Source: Eledone cirrhosa (taxonomy: Eukaryota). Taken from it: a DNA stretch of 64,000 nucleotides. The notes under the pieces are model-generated. The model was not told where the DNA came from and ran no database searches. It worked only from the letters and a program-made list of their open reading frames with translations. The stretch covers positions 84,258,001-84,322,000 of the forward strand of contig OZ024740.1 in assembly GCA_964016885.1 (NCBI GenBank). The letters run 5' to 3'. Below, piece after piece: positions 32,652 through 35,910 of the stretch. The position numbers and the translations under genes are program-made. Each line of letters starts with the position of its first letter. Within the stretch, counting starts at the first letter, position 1.

Positions 32652-35600
32652 AATTAAGTTAAAAATGTACATCCACATATGTATACTGAAATACTAGTAT
32701 GCATATGAATACACACACGTATACATATGTAGATGTACCAAGTTTTTCACTGGTCACTTTACCGTGAGTGTCCAGCTATTCTGTATGTAAACACACAGAC
32801 AAACCGGTTTTTAGAGTCATACTGGTTTTTGGGGAAACACCTTTCCTCTATTCTCCAGAAAGCCAGACAAGGAATATTGAACTAGTTTCGTTGTTGTTAC
32901 AACTCATCAGCAATATTTACCTATCTTCCGGCCTTTCTGGAGAATCGTAAAAGCACATATCGTTATATGCTTTTTCTATGAAAATTAGTAGTGGGCAGAC
33001 TAATTTGCATAGAGTGTGAGTACGTACCGGTTCAACGGAGACGATAAAAACAAATAACGAAACGAAATTAAATTTCGTTTCGTTTGTAACTCACTTTTGT
33101 ATGACTGACGCTTAAACAATTAAGTTAAAAATGTACATCCACATATGTATACTGAAATACTAGTATGCATATGAATACACACACGTATACATATGTAGAT
33201 GTACCAAGTTTTTCACTGGTCACTTTACTGTGAGTGTCCAGCTATTCTGTATGTAAACACACAGACAAACCGGTTTTTAGAGTCATACTGGTTTTGGGGG
33301 AAACACCTTTCCTCTATTTTCCAGAAAGCCAGACAAGGAATATTGAACTAGTTTCGTTGTTGTTACAACTCATCAGCAATATTTACCTATCTTCCGGCCT
33401 TTCTGGAGAATCGTAAAAGCACATATCGTTATATGCTTTTTCTATGAAAATTAGTAGTGGGCAGACTAATTTGCATAGAGTGTGAGTACGTACCGGTTCA
33501 ACGGAGACGATAAAAACAAATAACGAAACGAAATTAAATTTCGTTTCGTTTGTAACTCACTTTTGTATGACTGACGCTTAAACAATTAAGTTAAAAATGT
33601 ACATCCACATATGTATACTGAAATACTAGTATGCATATGAATACACACACGTATACATATGTAGATGTACCAAGTTTTTCACTGGTCACTTTACCGTGAG
33701 TGTCCAGCTATTCTGTATGTAAACACACAGACAAACCGGTTTTTAGAGTCATACTGGTTTTGGGGGAAACACCTTTCCTCTATTCTCCAGAAAGCCAGAC
33801 AAGGAATATTGAACTAGTTTCGTTGTTGTTACAACTCATCAGCAATATTTACCTATCTTCCGGCCTTTCTGGAGAATCGTAAAATCACATATCGTTATAT
33901 GCTTTTTCTATGAAAATTAGTAGTGGGCAGACTAATTTGCATAGAGTGTGAGTACGTACCGGTTCAACGGAGACGATAAAAACAAATAACGAAACGAAAT
34001 TAAATTTCGTTTCGTTTGTAACTCACTTTTGTATGACTGACGCTTAAACAATTAAGTTAAAAATGTACATCCACATATGTATACTGAAATACTAGTATGC
34101 ATATGAATACACACACGTATACATATGTAGATGTACCAAGTTTTTCACTGGTCACTTTACTTTGAGTGTCCAGCTATTCTGTATGTAAACACACAGACAA
34201 ACCGGTTTTTAGAGTCATACTGGTTTTGGGGGAAACACCTTTCCTCTATTCTCCAGAAAGCCAGACAAGGAATATTGAACTAGTTTCGTTGTTGTTACAA
34301 CTCATCAGCAATATTTACCTATCTTCCGGTCATTCTGGAGAATCGTAAAAGCACATATCGTTATATGCTTTTTCTATGAAAATTAGTAGTGGGAAGACTA
34401 ATTTGCATAGAGTGTGAGTACGTACCGGTTCAACGGAGACGATAAAATCAAATAACGAAACGAAATTAAATTTCGTTTCGTTTGTAACTCACTTTTGTAT
34501 GACTGACGCTTAAACAATTAAGTTAAAAATGTACATCCACATATGTATACTGAAATACTAGTATGCATATGAATACACACACGTATACATATGTAGATGT
34601 ACCAAGTTTTTCACTGGTCACTTTACTGTGAGTGTCCAGCTATTCTGTATGTAAACACACAGACAAACCGGTTTTTAGAGTCATACTGGTTTTGGGGGAA
34701 ACACCTTTCCTCTATTTTCCAGAAAGCCAGACAAGGAATATTGAACTAGTTTCGTTGTTGTTACAACTCATCAGCAATATTTACCTATCTTCCGGCCTTT
34801 CTGGAGAATCGTAAAAGCACATATCGTTATATGCTTTTTCTATGAAAATTAGTAGTGGGAAGACTAATTTGCATAGAGTGTGAGTACGTACCGGTTCAAC
34901 GGAGACGATAAAAACAAATAACGAAATGAAATTAAATTTCGTTTCGTTTGTAACTCACTTTTGTATGACTGACGCTTAAACAATTAAGTTAAAAATGTAC
35001 ATCCACATATGTATACTGAAATACTAGTATGCATATGAATACACACACGTATACATATGTAGATGTACCAAGTTTTTCACTGGTCACTTTACTGTGAGTG
35101 TCCAGCTATTCTGTATGTAAACACACAGACAAACCGGTTTTTAGAGTCATACTGGTTTTGGGGGAAACACCTTTCCTCTATTCTCCAGAAAGCCAGACAA
35201 GGAATATTGAACTAGTTTCGTTGTTGTTACAACTCATCAGCAATATTTACCTATCTTCCGGCCTTTCTGGAGAATCGTAAAAGCACATATCGTTATATGC
35301 TTTTTCTATGAAAATTACTAGTGGGCAGACTAATTTGCATAGAGTGTGAGTACGTACCGGTTCAACGGAGACGATAAAAACAAATAACGAAACGAAATTA
35401 AATTTCGTTTCGTTTGTAACTCACTTTTGTATGACTGACGCTTAAACAATTAAGTTAAAAATGTACATCCACATATGTATACTGAAATACTAGTATGCAT
35501 ATGAATACACACACGTATACATATGTAGATGTACCAAGTTTTTCACTGGTCACTTTACTGTGAGTGTCCAGCTATTCTGTATGTAAACACACAGACAAAC

Positions 35601-35910
35601 CGGTTTTTAGAGTCATACTGGTTTTGGGGGAAACACCTTTCCTCTATTCTCCAGAAAGCCAGACAAGGAATATTGAACTAGTTTCGTTGTTGTTACAACT
35701 CATCAGCAATATTTACCTATCTTCCGGCCTTTCTGGAGAATCGTAAAAGCACATATCGTTATATGCTTTTTCTATGAAAATTAGTAGTGGGCAGACTAAT
35801 TTGCATAGAGTGTGAGTACGTACCGGTTCAACGGAGACGTGTATTCATATGCATACTAGTATTTCAAATAACGAAACGAAATTTAATTTCGTTTCGTTAT
35901 TTGTTTTTAT
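32652..35910 (-). mobile_element. Retrozyme-like tandem array, family B: 7 HHR-bearing units of 466 bp plus inverted 5' piece
   Basis: Exact 466-bp period; HHRs at 32873, 33339, 33805, 34271, 34737, 35203, 35669 (each 45 nt); 35838-35910 is inverted; (TA)n flanks. Confidence 0.92.
32873..32917 (-). ncRNA. Minimal type I HHR (family B; same sequence in all 7 units)
   Basis: Minus: aatattg-CTGATGA-gttgt-aaca-acaac-GAAA-ctag-TT-caatatt; helix I extended by attctccagaaag/ctttctggagaat. Confidence 0.92.

What the first reader, a model, noticed from the sequence alone, without database searches (positions are those of the whole stretch)
32652..35910. Young 466-nt retrozyme array (7 intact ribozymes), a candidate source of small circular RNA
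Seen: seven nearly identical 466-bp units on the minus strand, each with an unmutated HHR whose helix I extends into a longer stem, plus an inverted 5' piece and (TA)n flanks. Known: tandem HHR repeats in animals are transcribed, self-cleave to monomers and circularise. Inference: this apparent satellite is a head-to-tail cDNA multimer, possibly from rolling-circle reverse transcription of a 466-nt circle by a PLE RT.
Basis: partly seen in the sequence, partly recalled or inferred. Interest (0 to 1): 0.8.

Follow-up and report, generated by a model that had tools for sequence, protein, structure and literature searches.

The report
Retrozyme array with Penelope-type insertion ends
A 466-base non-coding repeat, present seven times in a row with a hammerhead-ribozyme motif in every copy, is likely a small parasitic retroelement (retrozyme) of a known animal kind; its two recurring ends suggest it was pasted in by a Penelope-like transposon's enzyme, while self-cutting and RNA circles remain untested.

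Summary
The array has 6.84 units of 466 bp (0-7 differences between full units), seven intact type I hammerhead motifs on the minus strand, an inverted 5' piece and (TA)n flanks. The ribozyme has canonical geometry, covaries with a homologous 426-434-bp family in the same window, and has an unusual GUU site.

The added result concerns the ends. Both families stop at two fixed points about 60-74 nt apart, inside the ribozyme-defined monomer. All 4 two-armed insertions carry the long end on one arm and the short end on the other, which is the Penelope-like 'tail' pattern. In the best public run, 12 contigs end at the long point and 8 at or near the short one, which points to a dispersed family. 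Hydra-type Penelope-like elements lie nearby, but none shares this repeat.

Circular RNA and cleavage are untested. Variants shared between units argue against a single circle copied without later exchange.

Verdict: a new family of a known kind (non-LTR retrozyme), useful for testing how such elements move. This scan noted similar retrozyme arrays and Penelope-type ends on other DNA.

The parts
32652..35839 (-). Main arm: 3188 bp = 7 x 466 minus the 74-nt tail; runs from monomer position 303 (5') to position 228 (3', the 'short end')
32857..32928 (-). Type I hammerhead, unit 1 (repeats at +466: 33323-33394, 33789-33860, 34255-34326, 34721-34792, 35187-35258, 35653-35724); GUU site, predicted cut between 32880 and 32879
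32880..33345 (-). One predicted cleavage-to-cleavage monomer, 466 nt (first of six); predicted about 65% paired
33000..33011 (-). 12-nt word TATGCAAATTAG (contains an octamer), the longest word shared with the homologous family; in every unit; lies in a predicted hairpin
33044..33117 (-). 74-nt 'tail' (monomer 229-302) between the short and the long fixed end; holds a 13-bp hairpin and ends TTTTTAT
35839..35866 (+). 28-nt inverted templated insert (monomer 166-193) at the 5' junction, with 1-2-nt microhomologies
35870..35910 (+). Inverted arm (monomer 262-302), folded back in the tail hairpin and ending at the 'long end' against (AT)n
32151..32651 (.). (TA)n target microsatellite, left flank
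35911..36198 (.). (TA)n target microsatellite, right flank
375..2083 (+). Homologous family B (426-434-bp unit, GUA hammerhead), insertion B1: inverted arm with long end, main arm with short end
55926..58748 (+). Family B insertion B5: inverted arm with long end, tandem main arm with short end
63088..63798 (+). Family B insertion B6: plus arm with long end; inverted arm reaches the short end after an internal jump
44107..46352 (-). Hydra-type Penelope-like RT + endonuclease gene in two frames; example of the candidate helper class, does not share the repeat

Best explanation
This is a 6.84-copy array of a 466-bp non-coding unit, each copy carrying an intact type I hammerhead motif, and it is likely a non-autonomous retrozyme that a Penelope-like (PLE) reverse transcriptase/endonuclease inserted into a (TA)n microsatellite as a ready-made multimer. 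Shown: tandem units, ribozyme covariation, two fixed ends inside the monomer, an inverted arm and a dispersed family. Inferred working: arrays would be transcribed on the ribozyme strand, possibly from an internal octamer-containing promoter. Helix III is only two base pairs around a palindrome, so neighbouring ribozymes would cut as dimers, probably slowly because of the GUU site; some 466-nt monomers would be released and could be ligated to circles by a host ligase. A PLE protein would bind the tail hairpin, nick both strands of (TA)n and prime twice, at monomer position 228-233 and at position 302. The first cDNA would run 3188 nt until it met the second priming site, the second would copy part of the tail, and repair would join them head to head. 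Identity as a PLE-moved retrozyme is about 0.85. The template is the weakest step: uncut multimeric transcript about 0.45, circle about 0.3, later local expansion about 0.25.
For: Ribozyme under selection: 6 of 12 pairs change on both sides between families A and B; slid controls reach at most 2 (the signal rests on essentially one A-versus-B contrast). None of the 17 listed variant positions in the three laid contig runs falls in the core or helices I-III, so GUU is family-wide. A-B homology: z 36 against 100 shuffles. Ends: 4 of 4 two-armed insertions in the window have one long and one short end; the duplicated pair B3/B4 ends at the long end and B2 about 10 nt before it. In run X1, of 63 partly laid contigs, 12 leave the unit at 33510 (position 302), 6 at 33579 and 2 at 33584, each into (TA)n; I had noted position 302 before seeing this. 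The main arm stops within 0-3 nt of the inverted arm's start. A tail on one of two inverted arms is a described PLE mark (PMC3846280, PMC8557442, passages). A purified PLE nicks and extends both strands, starts at two internal sites bounding the tail, and uses uncut RNA (PMC11167929). Hydra-clade PLEs insert in (TA)n (PMC8557442 section 11), and a gene with their motifs is in the window.
Against: No RNA-level evidence was obtained. No helper was found: none of 5 PLE terminal regions and 2 other ribozyme-bearing pieces resembles the unit (z -1.2 to 0.4). No target-site duplication can be read in (TA)n. The tail is 60-74 nt against the 30-40 nt described. Exact abutment of the arms holds only for this array (B5 about 19 nt, B1 about 110 nt off; B6 arms overlap), and the junction can also be parsed as a fold-back with an insert. 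X1 may be the window's own source, so one or two of the loose ends may be this locus. 8 of 9 Xenopus dimers did not cleave in vitro (bioRxiv 10.64898/2026.07.22.740005). Family-level variants break fewer predicted pairs than expected (3 vs 5.7) but not significantly (P 0.06).
Confidence: 0.7

Rival explanations
1. Rolling-circle route: same element, but the PLE enzyme copied one 466-nt circular RNA seven times round and stopped at the second priming site.
For: Priming sites lie inside the ribozyme-defined monomer, which suits a circle. The main arm is exactly 7 turns minus the tail. All 7 units share an allele that is 0.6% in X1 (33298). Related retrozymes make circles in coral, mussel and axolotl (PMC7229834). 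The ribozyme helices I and II stay formed in the predicted circle (pair probabilities 0.63-0.99).
Against: One circle gives only private errors, yet 3 of 11 variable sites are shared between units; this needs later exchange. It also needs repeated strand displacement. Internal priming fits a linear multimer equally well. Uncut RNA was the main PLE substrate in vitro (PMC11167929).
Confidence: 0.3
2. A short PLE-type insertion (at least 1.84 units) was expanded in place by unequal exchange, as an ordinary minisatellite.
For: The four-gamete pattern at sites shared by units 2+5 and 4+5 shows exchange or a mixed template. Array variants behave neutrally towards the fold (7 breaks vs 6.6 expected). 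This route is proposed in bioRxiv 10.64898/2026.07.22.740005.
Against: It does not explain the ends, which still need PLE-type insertion. Family B has multi-unit arrays with the same ends at two further loci.
Confidence: 0.25
3. The unit is the terminal repeat (pLTR) of an autonomous PLE elsewhere in the genome, and the array is an ORF-less by-product rather than an independently moving retrozyme.
For: Its ends are pLTR-like; Hydra-clade PLEs carry canonical hammerheads (PMC8557442); 24 of 57 Xenopus retrozyme families match known TEs, mostly PLE termini (bioRxiv preprint); a PLE terminal repeat in the window also has a GUU hammerhead (41252).
Against: No A or B copy in the window joins an ORF. 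The share of X1 contigs running on into unlike sequence is given as 0 (39 loose-end rows not shown). The geometry is canonical (6-bp helix I, 4-bp helix II), not the minimal PLE type of PMC4209133.
Confidence: 0.2
4. Plain satellite DNA with a chance or dead hammerhead-like motif.
For: Below the Rfam gathering score; U at the cleavage position; helix III not formed in the predicted monomer.
Against: 0 of 20000 controls; covariation; fixed ends recurring in many contigs.
Confidence: 0.03

Closest known systems
Metazoan non-LTR retrozymes (Cervera & de la Pena 2020, PMC7229834; Li, Clavereau & Pollet 2026, bioRxiv 10.64898/2026.07.22.740005)
   Same: Tandem non-coding units, one canonical type I hammerhead per unit, GC under 50%, no LTR/PBS/PPT, highly paired predicted monomer with the ribozyme left free, co-occurrence with PLEs; 7 units is ordinary (75% of families have at most seven).
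   Different: 466 nt is slightly above the 150-450 bp of the 2020 paper (within the 51-972 bp of the 2026 preprint). The site is GUU. No readable TSD. Two fixed ends and a tail are not described for retrozymes in the parts I read (the 2020 supplement and preprint supplements could not be seen).
Amphibian satellite 2 / axolotl Rtz331 and Rtz353
   Same: Very short palindromic helix III, expected to work as dimers; family B has the U-U mismatch at the base of helix II reported for HHR_Amex2; an internal promoter is reported for newt satellite 2 (second-hand passage in PMC2220036).
   Different: Unrelated sequence as far as known (not compared); the promoter role of the octamer here is untested, and its presence in the newt promoter is recalled, not read.
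Penelope-like element pLTRs, especially the Hydra clade (PMC8557442, PMC3846280, PMC11167929)
   Same: (TA)n target, inverted 5' arm with palindromic junction, tail at one end only, two start points inside the RNA.
   Different: No ORF; longer tail (60-74 nt vs 30-40); no sequence match to the PLE termini in the window.
Non-autonomous Chlamys elements such as MRC1 (PMC8557442, passage)
   Same: Non-autonomous PLE dependants forming head-to-tail multicopy insertions.
   Different: Green-algal, clade lacks canonical hammerheads, and they share 3' ends with a known helper.

Membership tests
Non-LTR retrozyme | At least two consecutive tandem units each with a complete type I hammerhead | tested here: met
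   7 of 7 units; Rfam HH9 E 7.7e-8, below gathering
Non-LTR retrozyme | Non-coding, no LTR/PBS/PPT, GC below 50% | tested here: met
   No ORF of 110 aa or more inside the units (one search lists only TA-repeat frames touching the edges); GC about 0.34; PBS/PPT not searched specifically, structure is plain tandem
Non-LTR retrozyme | Dispersed multi-copy family | tested here: met
   1062 contigs laid in X1; 12+6+2 leave the unit into (TA)n at fixed points; only one A locus in the window
Non-LTR retrozyme | Highly self-paired monomer | tested here: met
   z -11, 0 of 100 shuffles; about 65% paired as circle; prediction only
Non-LTR retrozyme | Self-cleavage in vitro | not testable with these tools
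   Needs transcription assay
Non-LTR retrozyme | Unit-length linear and circular RNA in vivo | not testable with these tools
   No run on record as RNA was available to lay
Non-LTR retrozyme | Target-site duplication, when present | tested here: inconclusive
   Both flanks are (TA)n
Type I hammerhead (canonical metazoan) | Core CUGAnGA/GAAA/UH, helix I 6 bp, helix II 4 bp, short palindromic helix III | tested here: met
   H17 is U, which the NUH rule allows (PMC3138052, PMC3884650 passages)
PLE-mobilised element | Inverted 5' arm, tail at one end only, microsatellite target | tested here: met
   4 of 4 two-armed A/B insertions; recurrent ends in X1
PLE-mobilised element | Shared terminal sequence with an autonomous helper | tested here: inconclusive
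   0 of 5 PLE termini in the window match; whole genome not held
Autonomous PLE | RT + GIY-YIG ORF between pLTRs | tested here: not met
   No ORF in or joined to the array
Plant LTR retrozyme | Type III hammerhead in two LTRs | tested here: not met
   Type I topology, plain tandem

The most novel reading that the evidence does not exclude
The array is a fossil of rolling-circle retrotransposition: a Penelope-like enzyme dimer primed twice on one 466-nt ribozyme-made circular RNA, at two fixed sites flanking a 74-nt hairpin tail, and one cDNA went round seven times before colliding with the other. The family-wide GUU site would slow re-cutting of the circle. This would give the first mapped start sites and helper class for an animal circular-RNA retroelement. 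A bolder add-on, spread of the circle between species, is not excluded but is under 0.07.
Probability: 0.22. Interest if true: 0.75.

Novelty: new member of a known kind. Interest (0 to 1): 0.42.

Why it matters
How animal retrozymes move is still a proposal: papers suggest a Penelope-like enzyme and a circular template from co-occurrence and sequence likeness. This family supplies exact predicted priming sites (monomer 228-233 and 302), a target ((TA)n), a candidate helper class, and a natural GUA/GUU pair of related ribozymes. The helper and circle-versus-linear questions can therefore be tested directly with an existing in vitro PLE assay. The element type itself is known from many animals.

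Tried and rejected
The whole genome is not held, so copy number, helper search and allele comparison could not be done.

Expression: no RNA holder listed.

Cross-species spread: 20 runs of 17 studies hold part of the unit's words. I laid 3 of these 20 plus one added run. X4 (another organism label) gave one closed 496-letter contig at depth 4.5 without flanks; this fits trace foreign DNA or a thinly covered locus and does not show horizontal transfer. X23 gave 0 of 12,836,656 reads and is marked 'no test'. Unlaid and small-share rows are not used.

Pattern scans found nothing: metagenome contigs, viral contigs (43), prokaryote genomes (62). No look-alike in the scan's own index.

Rfam at gathering level: nothing; miRNA and sRNA hits are sub-threshold hairpin matches. 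Pfam recognised only a weak GIY-YIG in 1 of 9 neighbouring ORFs; the PLE calls rest on motifs and homologues.

An alternative UUC cleavage register was rejected because it leaves the first pair of helix I mismatched. Structure-preserving bias of family variants was not significant. The newt promoter paper and the supplement of PMC7229834 could not be read. The host was not determined: named hits of the neighbouring RT were Argonauta hians (41%, 36%) and Hydra vulgaris (32%), too distant to place it.

Full report
Observation. The window is microsatellite-rich eukaryotic DNA. At 32652-35839 lies a tandem array of period 466: six full units and 392 bp. Against the majority of the units there are 14 variant calls at 11 sites in 3184 bp compared, and full units differ by 0.92% on average. 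Each of the seven units has, on the minus strand, a 6-7-bp helix I, CUGAUGA, a 4-bp helix II with a six-base loop, GAAA, a two-pair helix III around a palindrome, and U at the cleavage position. Rfam HH9 aligns end to end (E 7.7e-8, 37.7 bits against a gathering score of 52). No such motif arose in 20000 Markov controls. I number the monomer from the predicted cut (position 1 = plus 33345 in the first full monomer).

A sister family. A second tandem family (B, 426-434 bp) occupies six places in the window, two of which are a local duplication. It is homologous to A (66-68% over about 250 nt; z 36 against 100 shuffles). In an alignment of one A and eight B ribozymes, 6 of 12 pairs change on both sides while core and helix III stay nearly fixed; slid controls reach at most 2. 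The double changes come almost all from the single A row, so this is one contrast, not nine. B cuts after GUA, A after GUU. The longest word shared by the two families is a 12-mer containing ATGCAAAT; all 17 copies in the window lie in A or B units, against 0.06 expected. It could be a promoter element (newt satellite 2 has an internal snRNA-type promoter: passage in PMC2220036; that it contains an octamer is recalled) or part of a conserved RNA hairpin. This is untested.

The ends. The main arm runs from position 303 to position 228 and is 3188 bp, exactly seven units minus 74 nt. At its 5' side come a 28-nt inverted copy of positions 166-193 and a fold-back arm that ends at position 302 against (AT)n. 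The insertion thus has a long end (302) and a short end (228). Family B shows the same: insertions B1, B5 and B6 each have one arm ending at the hairpin-TTTAT point and the other about 60 nt earlier, next to a TTTAAG word also present at A's short end. B3/B4 end at the long point and B2 about 10 nt before it. That makes 4 of 4 two-armed insertions; B6 reaches its short end after an internal jump. The last AT is shared with the target, so boundaries are uncertain by 2 nt and no duplication can be read.

Independent check. I laid four public runs on one unit, phased so that both ends were internal. In X1, 1062 contigs were laid, 63 of them only partly. The best-supported loose ends are 12 contigs at 33510 (position 302), 6 at 33579 (233) and 2 at 33584 (228), all into (TA)n, with 73-75% agreement in the first two groups, which indicates different flanks; 39 weaker rows were not shown. 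X1 may be the window's source, so one or two of these may be this locus. None of the 17 listed variant positions lies in the ribozyme core or helices I-III, so GUU is the family state, not decay. All seven units carry an allele that is 0.6% in X1 (33298), pointing to one founding template. The summed depth is very high but is not a copy number.

Comparison with papers. An inverted 5' arm, a tail at only one end and (TA)n targeting are described for PLEs, the last for the Hydra clade (PMC8557442: passages and section 11; PMC3846280: passages). A purified anole PLE nicks and extends both strands, starts at two internal sites that bound the tail, and does not need ribozyme cleavage (PMC11167929, parts 1-2 of 4). 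Animal retrozymes, their circles, ligation by RtcB and the proposal of a PLE helper are in PMC7229834 (parts 2-4 of 6; supplement unreadable and may bear on ends). PLE origin, unit sizes and the failure of 8 of 9 Xenopus dimers to cleave are in bioRxiv 10.64898/2026.07.22.740005 (parts 1-3 of 5; supplements not seen). Canonical versus minimal ribozyme geometry and the dimer model come from PMC4209133 (part 1 of 4). Searches listed no paper whose title or abstract opening reports fixed ends for an animal retrozyme; the library lacks most subscription papers.

Helper. The window holds several PLE remnants. The one at 44107-46352 has RWR, DKT, YRDD, CxCx5C, CxxC and CxH, matching the Hydra-clade description. 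Its terminal region and four others do not resemble A. The helper class is therefore plausible but not identified.

Mechanism. Shown: structure, covariation, ends, dispersal. Inferred: transcription, dimer cleavage, circles, PLE priming. The main arm stops within 0-3 nt of where the inverted arm starts, as in twin priming of LINE-1 (recalled, not read); this is exact only here, and I noticed it after the fact. A circle and a linear multimer both allow it. Against one circle without later exchange: three sites are shared between units 1+3, 2+5 and 4+5, with all four combinations at the last two (P about 7e-5, ignoring hotspots). At least 1.84 units must have arrived together for any later expansion. 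GUU is allowed by the NUH rule (passages) but is recalled as slower; here U17 extends the palindrome so that it could pair with A14 in the dimer. A PLE terminal repeat at 41252 also has GUU, so it is not unique.

Against my reading: no RNA evidence, no helper, a tail longer than described, and only a non-significant structural bias in family variants (3 breaks vs 5.7, P 0.06).

Verdict. A real, young array of a new non-LTR retrozyme family with clear PLE-type ends. It is a new member of a known kind; its value is that it makes the mobilisation route testable. Earlier notes of this scan describe retrozyme arrays and PLE-type ends on other DNA; they came after my reading and were not checked.

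Noticed in passing
window 375-2083, 6730-6876, 48730-49314, 50449-51027, 55926-58748, 63088-63798: Family B retrozyme (426-434 bp, GUA site, U-U at base of helix II), older than A, several cores decayed, internal TA/ATAC runs expanded in some units.
   Followed up: yes
window 32005-32150 (minus): About 150-bp piece between two (TA)n runs just left of the array with a different hammerhead-like motif (core at 32093; 12-bp helix II, 3-bp helix III, GUA); no likeness to A.
   Followed up: partly
window 36199-37094: Fold-back element of about 660-bp period just right of the array in the same microsatellite, with a hammerhead-like motif whose C3 is changed and whose helix II is about 50 nt (36555, minus). 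Three ribozyme-bearing elements share this (TA)n region.
   Followed up: partly
window 38340-38600 and 41090-41345: Inverted terminal repeats of a truncated Hydra-type PLE (endonuclease 40688-41086, minus); minimal hammerhead with a GUU site at 41252; about 2 kb of unrelated sequence lies between the ORF and the downstream repeat.
   Followed up: partly
window 2170-6230 (minus): Degraded Hydra-type PLE with inverted arms in (TA)n; the inverted arm runs about 140 nt further than the 3' arm, again a tail at one end (read by eye).
   Followed up: partly
window 43690-46960 (minus): Near-intact Hydra-type PLE, one frameshift at a C run, with inverted terminal repeats both ending in (TTTTAT)n.
   Followed up: partly
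window 11966-13066, 19418-20547, 54325-54753 (plus): Further PLE-like RT/endonuclease remnants of other types (labels Neptune-like and Poseidon-like are from recalled motifs).
   Followed up: no
window 7759 (+), 22627 (-), 29950 (-), 41628 (+), 60119 (-): More hammerhead-like motifs from loose scans; some may be chance.
   Followed up: no
window 8295-9770: 93-bp x 16 tandem array, 96% matches, with a 277/461-bp higher-order period; no hammerhead found by my scans.
   Followed up: no
window 48730-51027: Local duplication of about 1711 bp that includes a family B insertion.
   Followed up: no
run X9 laid on window 33246-33711: This smaller run of unrecorded type, same organism label as X1, is dominated by alleles that are 5-19% in X1 at five sites and lacks this array's allele at four of them; a different subfamily dominates there.
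   Followed up: no
run X4 laid on window 33246-33711: One 496-letter contig (466 + 30) closing on itself at depth 4.5 with no flanks, under another organism label; carries one allele nearly absent from X1.
   Followed up: partly
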